64,000 nt of DNA from Escherichia coli (GTDB taxonomy: Bacteria > Pseudomonadota > Gammaproteobacteria > Enterobacterales > Enterobacteriaceae), in the NCBI RefSeq assembly GCF_011045215.1, contig NZ_CP049201.1; one strand, written 5' to 3'. Of the stretch, positions 1,805 through 33,434 are shown piece after piece. How positions within the stretch are numbered: the first letter of the stretch is position 1; each line of letters begins with the position of its first letter. Made by a program: the position numbers and the translations under genes. The notes beneath the pieces were generated by a model. It searched no databases, had not been told where the DNA came from, and was given only the letters and a program-made list of their open reading frames with translations.

Positions 1805-3400
<1,596 letters not shown>

Positions 3401-3407
3401 GGGGTAA

Positions 3408-4799
<1,392 letters not shown>

Positions 4800-28697: not shown

Positions 28698-31169
28698 TTA
28701 AGAATCAGCCTGACTCGGGATCAGTTTTTGCCAGATAACTGAAACGTATTTTGCCTGGTAACGGGCGTCATCAAGTGCATTATGGCGCTCACCTTCGAAT
28801 GGAATAGCCGTTCTGGGATCGAAGTCTATGGCTTTCCCCAGCTCAACGATTGTGCGTACATCGCGATCGTTGTAGTAACGCCACGGGCAGGGGATCCCCT
28901 GCCGTTCGTATGAACGGCGCAAAATCGTGTTGTCGAAGTTGGCTCCATTTCCCCAGACCTGAACAAAAAATTCACCGGAGTTTTCGTCGATAAATTCCCG
29001 CAATTGTAACAGTGCATCATCTAACGGGATTTCATCGGTCATAATGGCAGATTGCGCTTCGCGTGATTGCTTAAGCCACCATTTAATGGTGTCCCGATCA
29101 ATGACTCCGCCAGCAGTTTCCAGATCGATAGTCTTACTAAATTCCGGTCCCATATCTCCGGTTTGCGGATCGAAAAATATTGCACCTATTGAGATGATCG
29201 GGGCATCAGGATTTTTTCCCATGGTTTCAAGGTCGATCATTAGATGGTCACACGTCCTGCTGGTGGATGTGATTTCGTGATGACCGTTCACCTTAATTGA
29301 GTGATCTGCCGTCTCGCCAGTTTCATTATCGCTATTGTGATGCTGATTGCCGCCAGTGTTCTCCTTGTGTGGATGTTCAGCGCCTTCCATTTCCTCCGGA
29401 TCATCTTCCTGAACTTCAACCTGATACTCTTCATCGAATGTTTCTTGGTATGTTGCGTCGCCCATCACCGCGCCACAATCAGGGCAGTTGCCGCCGCCGG
29501 TCTGACCGCAGGCGGTGCAGACTTTTTCCACTTCCTGTTGCGCCACTGGTTCAGGCTGTTTCGTTTCTGGCTCGTTTTGTAACGCATTTGGGCTGTTTTG
29601 TTCCGCTTTTTGGTAGTTCCGTTCCGATTCATGCTGGTTCTGGTTCACAGAATCGCGGGTCTGGATCCCCTTAACCCATTTCGGATCATTCGGGTCACTA
29701 ATCCCTTCAACAAATTCACCACGTGATGCAGCAAGCAACTTATCGGCGTCAGGCTGGCTGATATTGGCTGCCTGCATAATTTTGTTTACTTCGTCAGCGG
29801 TAACTTTTATCGGCTCTGGTTGTTCTGAATCTTCAGCGGTATCTACATTTTGCGGTAAGCCCGTGTATGTGCCATTTTTTCGGGCAAAATATTCTTCTTT
29901 TGTGATTTCAGTGGCGCCAGCAGCCAGTGCCTTATCCAGACCAGAAAGTTTGTTTGCGCGACCGTATTTTTCTCCGTCCTTATCTGCGAAGAGGAAATAG
30001 AACGGCCCCTCACGCTCTACAGATGGTTCAGCTTCCGGCGCGGTTTCATTTTTTGGGATATCAGATACCTCAGTTTCCACTGCATCAGTTTGTGTTTCTG
30101 ATGACTGGAGAACATCAACAGTGCCCAGGTCTGTTTCTTCATTCTCAAACACGCCCTTTGTCGTCAGGTATTCGCAGATATATTTGTTCAGTGCTACGGG
30201 ATCTTTGTGAATGTCGATCGGACGCTCACGGACAAGGCCAAAAATAGTTTGGCGGTCGTAGCGAAGGGCATCAGGCTGTTTGCGCATTGATGCCGAGATA
30301 CGCTTCCAGTCTTCGCGGTCGTTGTCGATAACTTCTTTTTTTGCCCAGCGATGGATGCTGCCGTCAATGTTTCCGGCATCCACATCACCAGGCCAGAGAG
30401 CGTAGGCCAGTTCGTCATCCAGTGTTTTCCATGTCTGCTTGTATTCGCGATGAATGGCAGCAATGACCGGGCTGATTTTTCCTGTTGAATTTTCAGTGTA
30501 CTGTTGATTGGCTCTGGCGCGGGCGAGATCAACAACAGACGTGTATTTTCCGGTTTCCTTGCGTTCACCTTCGCGACGTTTTTTCCAGATGCGCATCTCT
30601 GTCTGAATTTCGGGCCATTTAGCACCAGGAATACATTTATGCTTAACCCACCCAATGGCGTGCAACTTAAGCTCCGGATACATGGCGTTAACTTCTGGCA
30701 TTTTCATCAACGCTTCAACGATATGTCCGTCGAATGTTGCCATGTCTTCCTGCAACAATTCCTGTGTGCTAATAACCATATCAACGGTGATGTTTTCACA
30801 TGTGTCGAACTTAACCATGACAGCGTTCTGTACTTCAGGGGCCAGCTTGTCAAAAGTGACGTTCATCGGATCGGATTCAGTCTCAACCGGGACAAAAGAA
30901 GCAGACTCCTCATCCCAGCGGTTTTCCTGCATATATTCAGCATCCCATGAATCGAGGGCAGGGCGGGGTATGCCAGGTTTATCCTCGCAGATAATAAATT
31001 TATAAGCGCAGTCCTGAGCAGCCGGATAATGTTCCAGGAACTGCCAGTGAAATTTTGCTCGAGCACGGCGTTCGTCGCCAGCTTCAATGGCTGTGGCTAC
31101 AGCCACCGCGCCTTCTCCCCTTGTTGCCAGTTCGTCAGGAATAGCGGCGCAAATAAAGACTTTACTCAT
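28698..31169 (-). CDS. large phage exonuclease with C-terminal DnaQ/DEDDh-like 3'-5' exonuclease domain
   Basis: 823 aa; C-terminal motifs DLETMG, GNGANFD and HNALDDA consistent with DEDDh; long acidic low-complexity central region. Confidence 0.75.
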   Translation of the reverse strand: MSKVFICAAIPDELATRGEGAVAVATAIEAGDERRARAKFHWQFLEHYPAAQDCAYKFIICEDKPGIPRPALDSWDAEYMQENRWDEESASFVPVETESDPMNVTFDKLAPEVQNAVMVKFDTCENITVDMVISTQELLQEDMATFDGHIVEALMKMPEVNAMYPELKLHAIGWVKHKCIPGAKWPEIQTEMRIWKKRREGERKETGKYTSVVDLARARANQQYTENSTGKISPVIAAIHREYKQTWKTLDDELAYALWPGDVDAGNIDGSIHRWAKKEVIDNDREDWKRISASMRKQPDALRYDRQTIFGLVRERPIDIHKDPVALNKYICEYLTTKGVFENEETDLGTVDVLQSSETQTDAVETEVSDIPKNETAPEAEPSVEREGPFYFLFADKDGEKYGRANKLSGLDKALAAGATEITKEEYFARKNGTYTGLPQNVDTAEDSEQPEPIKVTADEVNKIMQAANISQPDADKLLAASRGEFVEGISDPNDPKWVKGIQTRDSVNQNQHESERNYQKAEQNSPNALQNEPETKQPEPVAQQEVEKVCTACGQTGGGNCPDCGAVMGDATYQETFDEEYQVEVQEDDPEEMEGAEHPHKENTGGNQHHNSDNETGETADHSIKVNGHHEITSTSRTCDHLMIDLETMGKNPDAPIISIGAIFFDPQTGDMGPEFSKTIDLETAGGVIDRDTIKWWLKQSREAQSAIMTDEIPLDDALLQLREFIDENSGEFFVQVWGNGANFDNTILRRSYERQGIPCPWRYYNDRDVRTIVELGKAIDFDPRTAIPFEGERHNALDDARYQAKYVSVIWQKLIPSQADS

Positions 31170-31454: not shown

Positions 31455-31639
31455 TGTGCACATCCTTTTGGCATCAGACGTAAACGAGCCAGCATTGAAA
31501 CAATGCATATTTTATTTAATAGCTCCCGTTCTTGTTTTCTCTTGTTAATGGCATCTTCAGTAAATACAGGGTTACTGATAGTGACACCAATTTCAAAACA
31601 ACCTTCAGACGTATTAACGTTTGGTAATAACGTTTTCAT
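31451..31639 (-). CDS. dicB: cell division inhibitor DicB
   Basis: 62 aa (MKTLLPNVNTSEGCFEIGV...LMPKGCAQ) with GAGGA RBS; directly downstream of dicF. Confidence 0.85.
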   Translation of the reverse strand: MKTLLPNVNTSEGCFEIGVTISNPVFTEDAINKRKQERELLNKICIVSMLARLRLMPKGCAQ

Positions 31640-31807
31640 TATCGCGTCCTCAACAATGAATTTTGTGATGCAGTGCCTGGTGCCTCCAGGTGACGTTAAC
31701 CAGTTAACAATTAACGCCGGATACAGAGAATCCACCCATAACACTGTTTTTGGTTTTAACTGTTCCGCGTGCGCTTAGCCGCATTCACCGCATCACAAAA
31801 TTCACTT

Positions 31808-31865
31808 TAAAAACGGCGGCAGAGCAGTCACGGAGTAAAACTGATACCGCCAAACGTCACCAGAA
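31808..31865 (-). ncRNA. dicF: DicF small regulatory RNA
   Basis: minus-strand sequence UUUCUGGUGACGUUUGGCGGUAUCAGUUUUACUCCGUGACUGCUCUGCCGCC followed by a U-run matches DicF (53 nt plus terminator tail). Confidence 0.88.
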
Positions 31866-32125
31866 AATTGATAACAGAGGGCGTTGCAGCGGGGTTGTCA
31901 CTTAAGCGTATGGTCAACCTGACAACTCGGTGTCCTCAACGGGGAAGGAATAACCCCGCCATACTTACCGCCGCGCCATTTCGCGGATTGCCACAACCGG
32001 AAGCGCACGGTCGAATTAAATTTACCGACACCGTACAGTTAGACGAATTTCGCCGTGCGCTTTCGTGTTGTGTGCCTGCTTTTAACCACGTCAGGCGAGG
32101 TGGTATCCTTAAAATCACCACAGTT

Positions 32126-32701
32126 TTAAGGATTCATTAAGCAATGTCGCAACCACCAATAAATCCGCTTAAGAACATGAAAATTGATTACTGGTATAAA
32201 GCGCTTACAGTTGTTGGCGCTGCGTTGTTTGTCTTTAATGGAACGTCTTTTTTTGACAGATATCCCGTTGTTCCATTGGGTTTTTTGTCCTCCGGCATCT
32301 TTTTTATTGGTTTGGGGGAGTGGATTAATCACCCTCTCAAAGTGAGATTTATTGGTCCTGGGGTTTGGACTCGTGGATATAATCGTTCTTCGTGCGCACT
32401 CGGCATCATCTTCGACATACTTGGTTGTTTCCTGATTGTTACAGGAGTCGTCAAGTTCTTCTGATGTAAAACCGCAAATGGGGCACGTAACGGGAATTTT
32501 GAAAAGCGTTTCTCCGGGTTCCAGAACAAAATTTTCTGCGGTCTGATTTTGCTTCTCATATTTGTGCTCCGCGTCATTGTGAGAGCACATTCTTATTCTG
32601 AGTGCCTGTTTAAACTCACTGAAGCTGAGAGCTTCTTCGCCTTCGGCAAGGCCTTCGAAGTATTCTTCGTAAGCCTTTTCCATGATTGTGTCGAAATCCA
32701 T
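32126..32701 (-). CDS. hypothetical protein in the ydfB/ydfC position, possible zinc-ribbon
   Basis: 191-aa ORF translationally coupled to ydfA (AGGTGA RBS, 1-nt gap); CPICGF...C motif; C-terminal third is low-complexity and overlaps an antisense 106-aa ORF, so the true extent is uncertain. Confidence 0.5.
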   Translation of the reverse strand: MDFDTIMEKAYEEYFEGLAEGEEALSFSEFKQALRIRMCSHNDAEHKYEKQNQTAENFVLEPGETLFKIPVTCPICGFTSEELDDSCNNQETTKYVEDDAECARRTIISTSPNPRTNKSHFERVINPLPQTNKKDAGGQKTQWNNGISVKKRRSIKDKQRSANNCKRFIPVINFHVLKRIYWWLRHCLMNP

Positions 32702-32702
32702 A

Positions 32703-32858
32703 TCACTCACCTGAGTTTCTTTCCAGCCAGCGACGGGCACCATTTTCGGTTTTAAACGTTTTGCTTTTGGTATACGTCATCGCGGTGAACGTGCCGTCCT
32801 GGTTGGGGAACACGCCACATACCAGAGATTCGCTGTTGCCAAGATCGATAGTATCCAT
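32703..32858 (-). CDS. ydfA: YdfA (51-aa DicA-operon protein)
   Basis: 51 aa from internal ATG with GAGG RBS; first gene downstream of dicA. Confidence 0.75.
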   Translation of the reverse strand: MDTIDLGNSESLVCGVFPNQDGTFTAMTYTKSKTFKTENGARRWLERNSGE

Positions 32859-33026: not shown

Positions 33027-33434
33027 TTATTTTATTGATTTATTTTTACGCGCTTTAAGCATTTCTTCGAAGAGTTTGTTGAAGTTTTCTACTCTTGCGC
33101 GCATTTCAGACAGCAAGGCTTCCTGCTCGGAAGATGGAAGAGCATCGAATAATTCGATCAATTCTTTGTGGTTGGGAGTTAGCTCTGTTTCCACATGAAG
33201 TTCTTGTGCAGGCACTGGTGCCTTGTCTTCATCACCAAACATTAGCCATGTAGGTGAGCACTTCAGAGCATCCGCTAAAGCAAACAATCGTTTTCCGACT
33301 GGCTGGGTTTCGTCTCTTTCCCATTGTGAAATTGTGACGTGAGCAACTCCAGCGAGGCGCGCAGCTTCTCGTTGTGTTAAGCGTAATTCTTTTCGTCGCG
33401 CCAGAACTCGCTGGCCTAGGGTTCTTGTATCCAT
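33027..33434 (-). CDS. dicA: HTH XRE-family repressor DicA
   Basis: 135 aa with N-terminal HTH (LTQREAARLAGVAHVTISQWERDETQP); divergent from dicC. Confidence 0.88.
   Translation of the reverse strand: MDTRTLGQRVLARRKELRLTQREAARLAGVAHVTISQWERDETQPVGKRLFALADALKCSPTWLMFGDEDKAPVPAQELHVETELTPNHKELIELFDALPSSEQEALLSEMRARVENFNKLFEEMLKARKNKSIK

What the first reader, a model, noticed from the sequence alone, without database searches (positions are those of the whole stretch)
32126..32743. Antisense-overlapping ORFs in the ydfB/ydfC position
A 191-aa minus-strand ORF (translationally coupled to ydfA, with a CPICGF Cys motif but a low-complexity C-terminal third) overlaps a 106-aa plus-strand ORF encoding a convincing two-TM membrane protein (32144..32464). 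The locus is about 400 bp longer than the ydfB+ydfC region of K-12. Either one frame is spurious or the locus is dual-coding, and the minus gene may really be two shorter genes.
Basis: seen in the sequence. Interest (0 to 1): 0.4.

Follow-up and report, generated by a model that had tools for sequence, protein, structure and literature searches.

The report
Two real genes on opposite strands
In this E. coli prophage, a conserved small membrane-protein gene lies wholly inside, and antisense to, an early-operon gene whose overlapping part has been kept free of stop codons across many diverged phages while its amino-acid sequence drifts freely, so neither ORF is spurious.

Summary
A 106-aa plus ORF (32144..32464) lies codon-for-codon in register inside a 191-aa minus ORF (32126..32701).

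The plus ORF is a real gene. It belongs to an unnamed family of about 105-aa proteins with three hydrophobic helices and invariant DYWYK and GEWINHP motifs. The family has 488 cluster representatives and no Pfam, NCBIfam, PHROG or PADLOC model.

The minus ORF is a chimera. YdfB codons 1-34 are fused in frame to a cassette gene I call "X". X's 45 non-overlapping codons (PGE...CPICGF) show a clean coding signature across relatives.

The 112 overlapping codons of X show no amino-acid constraint of their own, yet the frame stays open. In 16 diverged enterobacterial-phage homologues, none of 205 Leu and 67 Ser codons is TTA, CTA or TCA (the complements of stop codons). Flanking genes use these at about 21-22%. 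One relative, in which X stops at the edge of the overlap, has 8 further antisense stops.

The locus is therefore dual-coding, but asymmetrically. The likeliest reason is that the early transcript must stay translated across the counter-oriented insert, but no expression data were available.

Two details of the finding are wrong: the locus is about 120 bp longer than K-12, not about 400 bp, and the model shows three helices, not two.

The parts
32144..32464 (+). Gene for a 106-aa small membrane protein. Invariant motifs DYWYK(A) and G-GEW-NHP. Three predicted hydrophobic helices and one beta-hairpin.
   Evidence: ORF. Sixty homologues at 34-100% identity in Escherichia, Yersinia, Herminiimonas, Reinekea and metagenomes. 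Alignment with 14 invariant columns. Profile search gave 488 representatives at E<=1e-3. AF2 mean pLDDT 85.5. Substitution pattern d3>>d1>d2 in this frame.
32082..32109 (+). Promoter-like element for the membrane gene: TTAACC (32082-32087), 16-nt spacer, TG-extended -10 TGgTATCCT (32101-32109). The -10 hexamer ends 34 nt before the ATG.
   Evidence: Found at the same distance (34-36 nt) upstream of the ATG in window, L068, L072, L075 and L074, although those proteins are only 48-61% identical to the window's, apart from L068 at 89%. This is a consensus match only; function is inferred.
32126..32701 (-). 191-aa chimeric early-operon ORF, stop included: YdfB(1-34) + cassette gene X.
   Evidence: ORF. 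K-12 comparison. PHROG hits: phrog_2061 on residues 1-34 and phrog_35040 over the full length. Phage HannyBb annotates this ORF as a CDS.
32600..32701 (-). YdfB-derived N-terminal 34 codons. The ATG lies 1 nt after the ydfA stop.
   Evidence: 97% nucleotide identity to K-12 down to 32604. PGAP annotates exactly this stretch as a ydfB pseudogene fragment.
32465..32599 (-). Non-overlapping conserved segment of gene X (45 codons: RIRMCSHND...LEPGETLFKIPVTCPICGFT), with an internal ATG at 32590-32588.
   Evidence: Motif conserved in L068, L072, L075, L078 and L074, and homologous to the PGSVxID...VTLxGW segment of the mEp390-type loci. Coding signature in this frame: d3 0.66-0.68 > d1 > d2, and aa identity 0.42-0.44 against 0.18-0.23 in the other frames.
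32126..32464 (-). The 112 codons of X (plus stop) that run antisense, in register, through the whole membrane gene. The frame is kept open but is not constrained in sequence.
   Evidence: Zero in-register stops here and in 15 further diverged enterobacterial loci. Antisense aa identity is no higher than in relatives that do carry antisense stops. AF2 pLDDT <50 over most of it.
32031..32603 (.). The cassette that replaces the K-12 ydfB 3' end and ydfC. The left edge is fuzzy (32031-32083).
   Evidence: blastn against K-12 Qin.
32703..32858 (-). ydfA (DUF1391), the upstream gene of the same operon.
   Evidence: Pfam PF07151, E=2e-27. PGAP annotation.
31814..31865 (-). DicF sRNA, the next known element downstream in the operon.
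   Evidence: Rfam RF00039, 72.5 bits against a gathering score of 48.

Best explanation
Both ORFs are real, but they are real in different ways.

Shown:
- The plus-strand ORF encodes a conserved small membrane protein with three helices. Its family is prophage-associated and unnamed.
- The gene sits as a cassette, in the opposite orientation, inside the DicA-controlled early-left operon (ydfA-ydfB'-...-dicF-dicB). The cassette replaces the ydfB 3' end and ydfC of K-12.
- The minus-strand ORF is the operon-sense reading frame across that cassette. It consists of YdfB codons 1-34, fused in frame to a cassette gene X.
- X's 45 non-overlapping codons are under protein-level purifying selection.
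- X's remaining 112 codons run antisense and codon-in-register through the entire membrane gene. There the only detectable selection is against stop codons.

Inferred (most likely mechanism):
- The operon-sense transcript must stay translated across the counter-oriented insert. An untranslated 320-nt stretch would invite Rho-dependent termination and loss of translational coupling.
- Staying translated would protect expression of downstream early functions: cII and replication genes in the cro-X-cII context, and DicF/DicB here.
- It could also let early transcription run right across the membrane gene and its promoter, silencing that gene during lytic growth.

Inferred (function of the membrane protein):
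- The membrane gene is probably expressed in the lysogen from its own promoter, or from a pRE-like promoter in mEp390-type phages. It probably acts as a lysogeny-phase accessory function such as superinfection exclusion or defence.
For: Plus frame is real:
- Homologues of about 100-110 aa at 34-58% identity occur across several proteobacterial genera and in phages.
- The alignment has 14 invariant columns.
- The profile search found 488 representatives.
- The structural model is confident.
- Substitutions follow d3>>d1>d2 in this frame.
- Relatives with 3-17 antisense stops keep this frame intact.

Minus frame is kept open:
- Sixteen enterobacterial-phage homologues, 36-92% identical to one another, have 0 of 205 Leu codons as TTA/CTA and 0 of 67 Ser codons as TCA. 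Flanking genes use these at 21% and 22%.
- Each locus expects 2.2-5.3 antisense stops and shows none.
- The same trinucleotides occur 157 and 57 times in the other two registers.
- Other rare codons are used freely, for example AGA 0.37 and GGA 0.26.
- At least 56 synonymous switches at aligned Leu/Ser columns never landed on a stop complement.
- In L074, X stops two codons into the overlap, and 8 further antisense stops follow against 5.4 expected.

X is a real gene:
- Its non-overlapping segment is conserved with a coding signature. Of 648 identical-residue pairs, 399 use different codons.

X and the membrane gene travel together:
- They occur as a pair in three contexts: cro-X-cII, first gene after the repressor, and next to a repressor-linked accessory-gene cluster.

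The tail is unconstrained:
- Antisense identity is 0.20-0.28 at sense identity 0.36-0.55, the same as in the group that has stops.
- AF2 pLDDT is <50 over most of the tail.

Coupling geometry:
- X stops 4-22 nt before the next gene in L096, mEp390 and L080.
- X runs in frame into ydfC in L068/L070.
Against: - No expression data were available for either strand. Translation of the minus frame through the overlap is inferred only from stop avoidance.
- The antisense RNA shows no C>G skew that would mark a rut site.
- In L078 nothing lies downstream of X on its strand, yet the frame is still open. Protection of downstream genes therefore cannot be the whole reason.
- In this window about 260 nt of untranslated RNA follow X's stop before DicF anyway.
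- GTA and ATA codons are also depleted in the sense genes (0.05 vs 0.21 and 0.08 vs 0.16). Some broader NTA avoidance contributes, although it cannot explain 0 of 67 TCA or the total absence of TTA/CTA.
- Among near-identical E. coli prophage alleles, both frames carry occasional nonsense or frameshift variants. Neither gene is indispensable in resident, possibly cryptic, prophages.
- Control codon usage came from long ATG-initiated ORFs in the flanks, not from verified genes.
Confidence: 0.55

Rival explanations
1. Only the plus-strand membrane gene is functional. The minus ORF downstream of the conserved PGE...CPICGF segment is a meaningless shadow frame that is open by chance or through codon or dinucleotide bias in the sense gene.
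For: - In-register antisense frames are the ones most prone to long shadow ORFs (general knowledge).
- The tail shows no amino-acid constraint and is predicted disordered.
- NTA codons are depleted generally.
- L074 shows that X can end at the edge of the overlap.
- PGAP annotates no gene here.
Against: - Zero of 272 Leu/Ser codons are stop complements across 16 diverged sequences, against about 21-22% in flanking genes.
- The avoidance is specific to one register.
- TCA is absent although it carries no TA dinucleotide.
- Once L074 has a first stop, more accumulate at the neutral rate.
- Independence-bounded probabilities run from about 1e-6 (56 switches) to about 1e-28 (all codons).
Confidence: 0.12
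2. The whole 191-aa minus-strand product, tail included, is a functional protein. The tail would act as a composition-dependent disordered region. One possibility is an antagonist or partner of the membrane protein encoded on the other strand. The two share DNA, so the tail's sequence automatically tracks the membrane protein, and only openness needs to be selected.
For: - X's N-terminal domain and the membrane gene travel as a unit in three different genomic contexts, including L078, where no downstream gene needs read-through.
- The pattern "open but unconstrained" is what a self-tracking complementary peptide would show.
Against: - L074 and the variants P0068 and P0070 carry the X domain without the tail.
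- No structure is predicted for the tail.
- Sense-antisense peptide recognition is a contested idea (own knowledge).
- There is no direct evidence of interaction.
Confidence: 0.2
3. The minus ORF is the only real gene, and the plus ORF is the shadow frame.
For: Phage annotators call the minus ORF (HannyBb CDS0038, mEp390 gp39), and PHROGs holds it as phrog_35040.
Against: - The plus frame is intact and conserved in relatives whose minus frame is full of stops.
- Invariant motifs, family-wide length conservation and d3>>d1>d2 in the plus frame all point to the plus frame.
- Bcep176 gp33 is annotated in the plus frame.
Confidence: 0.01

Closest known systems
Embedded antisense overlapping genes proposed in E. 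coli O157:H7 (e.g. ano/ECs2385; PMC5960689, PMC9927249, bioRxiv 10.1101/2020.11.18.388249)
   Same: A protein-coding ORF lies fully embedded in, and antisense to, another ORF in an E. coli genome. Standard annotation keeps at most one of the two.
   Different: - The ano ORF is short (186 bp), and all of these cases rest on RNA-seq and Ribo-seq evidence (abstracts). By my recollection they are also taxonomically narrow.
- Here the evidence is comparative, spanning about 8 clades down to 36% identity.
- The embedded gene is the older and more conserved partner.
- The embedding ORF shows selection only for openness within the overlap.
K-12 Qin dicBF operon ydfA-ydfB-ydfC-dicF-dicB-ydfD (PMC5069750)
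   Same: Same operon and same flanks: ydfA, the first 34 codons of ydfB, DicF, dicB and ydfD at about 97% nucleotide identity.
   Different: The ydfB 3' end and all of ydfC are replaced by a cassette holding gene X and the counter-oriented membrane gene. The paper notes variable ydfB content among strains but does not describe this cassette.
Lysogeny-expressed accessory ("moron") membrane proteins next to phage immunity regions, such as lambda RexB/SieB and P22 SieA/SieB (own knowledge)
   Same: - A small membrane protein encoded beside the repressor/cro region.
- It is oriented against the lytic operons, or with the repressor.
- In L074 it sits beside AbiH and DUF2971 genes, and in L078 it sits downstream of a CI-type repressor.
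   Different: No sequence or fold similarity was found: no PADLOC, PHROG or Pfam hit and no significant fold match. An exclusion or defence function is untested.
Rho-dependent polarity and Rho suppression of untranslated antisense transcription in E. coli (own knowledge, e.g. Peters et al. 2012)
   Same: It supplies the rationale for why an operon-sense frame across a reverse-oriented insert would need to stay translated.
   Different: A roughly 110-codon reading frame maintained across an embedded gene purely to keep ribosomes on the transcript has, to my knowledge, not been described. It was not tested here, and no rut-like C>G skew was seen.

Membership tests
YdfB (K-12 b1572, 42 aa) | N-terminal sequence MDFDTIMEKAYEEYFEGLAEGEEALSFSEFKQAL, with the start adjacent to the ydfA stop | tested here: met
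   Identical 34 residues. 97% nucleotide identity down to 32604. phrog_2061 matches residues 1-34, E=3e-21.
YdfB (K-12 b1572, 42 aa) | C-terminal SSSAKSNG and a stop at codon 43 | tested here: not met
   Homology ends at codon 34 and the frame continues for 157 more codons. PGAP flags it as a pseudogene missing its C-terminus.
YdfC (K-12 b1573) | Sequence homologous to MQKREPVIIAPDYTDDELYEW... | tested here: not met
   No blastn match in the window between 32083 and 32604. ydfC is present downstream of the cassette in L068/L070 instead.
DYWYK/GEWINHP small membrane protein family (unnamed) | About 100-115 aa; invariant Y16 W17 Y18 K19 A20, G56 G58 E59 W60 N62 H63 P64, G87, G94; three hydrophobic helices | tested here: met
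   Alignment A1. Profile search. AF2 model.
Antisense overlapping gene pair (both strands protein-coding) | Both frames open over the overlap | tested here: met
Antisense overlapping gene pair (both strands protein-coding) | Selection acting on each frame | tested here: inconclusive
   Sense frame: clear purifying selection. Antisense frame: purifying selection in the non-overlapping part, and stop avoidance but no amino-acid constraint in the overlap.
Antisense overlapping gene pair (both strands protein-coding) | Transcription and translation of both frames | not testable with these tools
   No RNA-seq or Ribo-seq data were available.
Known anti-phage defence or superinfection-exclusion proteins | Match to a PADLOC, Pfam or PHROG model of a defence or exclusion protein | tested here: not met
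   No hits for either product. Only the genomic neighbourhood is suggestive.
Type I toxin-antitoxin (small hydrophobic toxin plus antisense RNA) | Toxin usually under 60 aa, with a dedicated non-coding antisense sRNA | tested here: not met
   The protein is 106 aa. The antisense strand is a conserved coding ORF. Rfam finds only DicF nearby. Toxicity was not tested.

The most novel reading that the evidence does not exclude
The X tail is a self-updating partner of the membrane protein. Because it is read from the exact complement, in register, its hydropathy profile mirrors the membrane protein's whatever mutations occur. Selection then only has to keep the frame open. Early-expressed X would bind and neutralise, or otherwise control, the lysogeny-expressed membrane protein during lytic growth. 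A weaker version needs no binding: a long ORF is maintained solely as a track for ribosomes, to license transcription across a counter-oriented gene.
Probability: 0.07. Interest if true: 0.9.

Novelty: new variant of a known kind. Interest (0 to 1): 0.62.

Why it matters
Conserved cases of long antisense overlaps in bacteria and phages are rare and contested. This locus offers a comparative signal that does not depend on expression data. Across about 8 clades of temperate phages, one strand is under ordinary protein selection. The other is under selection only to contain no stop codons. If the signal holds, it is a natural example of a frame being selected for translation as such, not for its product.

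It also exposes a systematic annotation gap. A family with 488 cluster representatives has no model in Pfam, NCBIfam or PHROGs. PGAP left it unannotated in the two RefSeq records examined, and the two phage records examined annotate the opposite strand. The cassette is present in about 15% of complete E. coli genomes (788 of 5426).

The mechanism is directly testable with sense-synonymous mutations that create antisense stops.

Tried and rejected
- Rut-site composition. I looked for C>G skew in the antisense RNA of the overlap. Ratios were 0.72-1.18, the same as in relatives with antisense stops, so this gives no support either way.
- Terminator after the membrane gene. The scan found only a weak hairpin inside the ydfB part. 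Folding 32455-32575 gave z=0.41. No terminator is identified.
- Fold comparison of the membrane-protein model. There is nothing at E<=0.001 in BFVD or PDB; the best hits were E=0.02 and 0.67. afdb50 was unavailable.
- Family libraries. PADLOC, NCBIfam and Pfam have no model for either product.
- Literature. Searches on antisense overlapping genes in prophages, on ydfB/ydfC and on mEp390 found nothing describing this cassette.
- X N-terminal domain search. It returned mostly short or junction-truncated variants from short contigs. These show that the domain occurs with other C-termini, but they are not clean enough to count.
- General codon optimisation as the cause of stop avoidance. Rejected, because AGA, AGG, GGA and CCC are used at or above flank frequency.
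- The 61-aa ORF 31936..32121 (GTG 4 nt after X's stop). It has no family hit and lies in the region homologous to the K-12 untranslated ydfC-dicF spacer, so I did not treat it as a gene.

Full report
**Setting.** The finding lies in the immunity/early-left region of a Qin-like lambdoid prophage of E. coli. On the minus strand, in order, are:
- a DicA-like repressor (33027..33434);
- ydfA (32703..32858; PF07151);
- the ORF in question;
- DicF sRNA (31814..31865; Rfam 72.5 bits);
- dicB (PF05358) and ydfD (PF07358);
- an 823-aa ORF (28698..31169) that RefSeq annotates as an exonuclease at the matching position.

The 1.1-kb stretch around the finding occurs at >=80% coverage in 788 of 5426 complete E. 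coli genomes.

**Observation.** Both ORFs exist as described. The plus ORF is 32144..32464 (106 aa). The minus ORF is open from 32743 (205 aa). Its biologically sensible start is the ydfB ATG at 32701, which lies 1 nt after the ydfA TGA stop and gives 191 aa.

The two frames are exactly codon-in-register, since 32144 - 32126 = 18. A stop in the minus frame therefore corresponds to a plus-frame TTA, CTA or TCA codon.

**What the locus is relative to K-12.** blastn against the K-12 Qin region shows 97% identity from upstream of ydfA down to window 32604, which is ydfB codon 34. Identity resumes from about 32083/32030 through dicF.
- About 520-573 bp here replace about 400-455 bp of K-12 (the ydfB 3' end plus ydfC).
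- The locus is therefore about 120 bp longer than K-12, not about 400 bp.
- PGAP annotates only a 34-codon ydfB pseudogene fragment, and nothing between it and dicB.
- Phage HannyBb annotates the 205-aa minus ORF, and PHROGs holds it as phrog_35040.

**The plus ORF is a real gene.**
- tblastn and protein searches found relatives of about 100-110 aa at 34-58% identity in Yersinia, Herminiimonas, Reinekea and many metagenomes. Relatives also occur in phage mEp390 and in Burkholderia phage Bcep176 gp33.
- Further loci come from Pantoea, Pseudomonas, Marinobacter, Variovorax, Desulfobacterota MAGs and 119 viral contigs.
- The alignment has 14 invariant columns (Y16 W17 Y18 K19 A20; G56 G58 E59 W60 N62 H63 P64; G87; G94).
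- A profile search of 1.84 billion representatives gave 488 hits at E<=1e-3 and 217 at E<=1e-10, nearly all 95-115 aa.
- AlphaFold gives mean pLDDT 85.5, with helices at residues 17-32, 42-62 and 85-105 and a hairpin at 65-79.
- There is no significant fold match in PDB or BFVD, and no Pfam, NCBIfam, PHROG or PADLOC model.
- Pairwise substitutions follow the single-gene pattern in this frame. At 85% protein identity, for example, d1=0.12, d2=0.07 and d3=0.38.

**The unexpected part: the antisense frame.** For about 35 non-redundant homologues I counted in-register antisense stops inside the sense CDS. The distribution is bimodal.

| Group | Loci | Antisense stops |
|---|---|---|
| With stops | L008, L010, L011, L012, L015, L017, L022, L074, L090 | 3-17 each, roughly as expected from local codon usage |
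| Without stops | window, mEp390, Pantoea L009, L068/70, L072, L075, L077-L080, L085, L094-L100, and a few GC-rich loci | none over about 107 codons |

In the group without stops, the open antisense interval runs 134-280 codons. In the enterobacterial loci it begins about 100-290 nt beyond the sense stop. It ends 15-69 nt upstream of the sense start, except in L068/L070, where it runs on into ydfC.

**Controls on the stop avoidance.**
- From the codon usage of flanking long ORFs, each enterobacterial-type locus expects 2.2-5.3 antisense stops, with P(0) of 0.001-0.09 per locus.
- Pooling 16 such sequences (36-92% identical to one another): 0 of 205 Leu codons are TTA or CTA (flanks 21%), and 0 of 67 Ser codons are TCA (flanks 22%).
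- The same trinucleotides occur 157 and 57 times in the other two registers.
- Other rare codons are used freely: AGA 0.37, AGG 0.15, GGA 0.26.
- At aligned Leu/Ser columns, at least 56 synonymous switches occurred among CTT, CTC, CTG, TTG, TCT, TCC and TCG. None went to a stop complement.
- Treating only those switches as independent gives P of about 1e-6. Treating all codons as independent gives about 1e-28. The true value lies in between.
- One caveat: GTA and ATA are also depleted (0.05 vs 0.21; 0.08 vs 0.16). Some broader NTA avoidance exists, but it cannot account for the complete absence of TTA/CTA or for TCA.

**The natural control.** L074 is 61% identical to the window protein. There the minus-strand gene ends "...IPVICPICGFTSE*", two codons into the overlap, and the rest of the frame carries 8 stops against 5.4 expected. 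Once the frame is broken it decays at the neutral rate. In the other lineages its openness is therefore being maintained.

**Is the minus ORF a gene?** Upstream of the overlap, the antisense ORFs share a conserved peptide.
- mEp390-type loci have FFERLxxxxPGSVxIDxxxxxVTLxGW, followed by LEKF.
- Window-type loci have xPGExxxxIPxxCPxCGF, followed by SEE.
- L074 carries both elements.

In that frame d3 (0.66-0.68) > d1 (0.45-0.48) > d2 (0.34-0.43). Amino-acid identity is 0.42-0.44, against 0.18-0.23 in the other two frames. Of 648 identical-residue pairs, 399 use different codons. That is a coding signature. I call this gene X.

Inside the overlap, X shows no constraint of its own. Antisense identity is 0.20-0.28 at sense identity 0.36-0.55, the same as in the group that has antisense stops (0.18-0.25). 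Sense third positions are near saturation. AlphaFold gives pLDDT <50 for most of the tail.

**Anatomy of the window ORF.**
- Codons 1-34 are YdfB.
- Codons 35-79 (32599..32465) are the conserved X segment. An internal ATG at 32590 is probably X's ancestral start; compare L072, whose X begins MKMKANKQN.
- Codons 80-191 are the overlap.
- The recombination junction is in frame, so translation starting at ydfB continues uninterrupted.
- In L068/L070 the same cassette starts at the ydfA ATG position and runs in frame into ydfC, giving 279-280 open codons.

**Contexts.**
- X is co-oriented with an early operon in most loci. It lies between cro and a cII-like gene in mEp390, L080, L096 and L077, and its stop is 4-22 nt before the next gene in the three loci where I measured it (L096, mEp390, L080). 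It is the first minus-strand ORF after the repressor in L072, L075 and L009; in the window, ydfA and the ydfB start precede it.
- The membrane gene is always counter-oriented to X.
- In mEp390-type loci the membrane gene points the same way as the repressor. It sits just downstream of the cII start, where lambda has pRE. TAGAAT/TAAAAT hexamers lie 30-43 nt upstream of its ATG. It may therefore ride on an establishment transcript; this is inference.
- In window-type loci, a TTAACC-N16-TGgTATCCT element sits 34-36 nt upstream of the ATG in five loci. These include L075 and L074, at 48-61% protein identity to the window.
- In L078 the membrane gene follows an S24-type repressor and three small plus-strand genes, one of them a BssS family member.
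- In L074 its neighbours are AbiH and DUF2971 genes.

These neighbourhoods suggest a lysogeny-phase accessory or defence role. No homology supports that.

**Mechanism.** What is shown: two frames, both under selection, with the minus frame selected for openness only within the overlap.

My preferred reading is that the operon-sense transcript has to remain translated across the reverse-oriented insert. Untranslated RNA of this length is a substrate for Rho and breaks translational coupling (established knowledge; not tested here). Two things could benefit:
- the downstream early genes; and
- silencing of the membrane gene by read-through transcription over its promoter. X's stop at 32126-32128 lies just inside the predicted 5' UTR of the membrane gene.

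Evidence against this reading:
- there is no rut-like C>G skew;
- in L078 nothing lies downstream of X;
- in this window about 260 nt of untranslated RNA follow X's stop anyway.

The main rival is that the tail itself is functional in a composition-dependent way. That would fit the fact that X and the membrane gene always travel together.

**Population view.** Among about 50 near-identical E. coli prophage alleles, both frames carry occasional knock-outs:

| Variant | Effect | Loci |
|---|---|---|
| 32391 C>A | sense stop | L059, L063, L064 |
| 32396 G>T | antisense stop | L053, L056, L067 |
| 32302 T>A | antisense stop | L049 |
| 32515 C>A | antisense stop in the PGE motif | L057 |
| 1-bp deletion at 32278 | frameshift in both frames | L073 |

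Neither product is indispensable in resident prophages. The selection described above is a long-term property of the phage lineages.

**Verdict.** The case is a new variant of a known kind, the antisense overlapping gene pair. It has unusually broad comparative support and an unusual selection pattern. Expression data are the missing piece.

Noticed in passing
window 31814..31865 (-): Full-length DicF sRNA (Rfam RF00039, 72.5 bits). This confirms that the finding sits in a dicBF-type operon.
   Followed up: yes
window 31607..31816 (-): Sub-threshold match to Rfam STnc100 (34.5 bits against a gathering score of 47) in the DicF-dicB spacer and the start of dicB.
   Followed up: no
window 31866..32600; L001, L002: In the two RefSeq records examined (L001, L002), PGAP leaves about 730 bp unannotated here. 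The two phage records examined (HannyBb, mEp390 gp39) and PHROGs (phrog_35040) annotate the antisense ORF. The conserved membrane-protein family has no PHROG, Pfam or NCBIfam model, which is a systematic annotation gap.
   Followed up: partly
L068 3692..4426 and L070 3692..4429 (-): The same cassette sits in a different slot. X starts at the ydfA ATG position and reads in frame, with no stop, into an intact ydfC (279-280 open codons).
   Followed up: partly
L074 1500..7000: The membrane gene lies in an accessory island with AbiH (PF14253) and DUF2971 genes. The 3' end of X ("...ICPICGFTSE*") is present twice (2306..2536 and 4313..4666), as if it were a recombination joint between cassettes.
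   Followed up: partly
L005 (mEp390) 2939..3000; L080, L079, L097 equivalents: The start of the membrane gene lies about 55-60 nt from the start of the divergent cII-like gene. A -10-like TAGAAT/TAAAAT sits between them, with a poor -35 overlapping the cII ATG. This resembles the position of lambda pRE.
   Followed up: no
window-equivalent positions 32278, 32302, 32391, 32396, 32515 in L049, L053, L056, L057, L059, L063, L064, L067, L073: Nonsense or frameshift alleles of either frame segregate among near-identical E. coli prophages. This is consistent with relaxed selection in resident or cryptic prophages.
   Followed up: partly
window 31936..32121 (-): A 61-aa GTG-initiated ORF starts 4 nt after X's stop. 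It has no family hit and lies largely in sequence homologous to the K-12 untranslated ydfC-dicF spacer, so it is probably not a gene.
   Followed up: partly
proteins P0068, P0070, P0074: The X N-terminal domain also occurs fused to a different conserved C-terminus ("...PNKFGLEVLETLTNEEIQKAR..."). In one variant an in-frame internal deletion of the overlap still leaves X's frame open.
   Followed up: no
16 sense CDS of the enterobacterial group: GTA and ATA codons are also depleted relative to the flanks, and third positions favour pyrimidines. This gives the antisense frame a purine-rich first codon position. The cause is unresolved.
   Followed up: no
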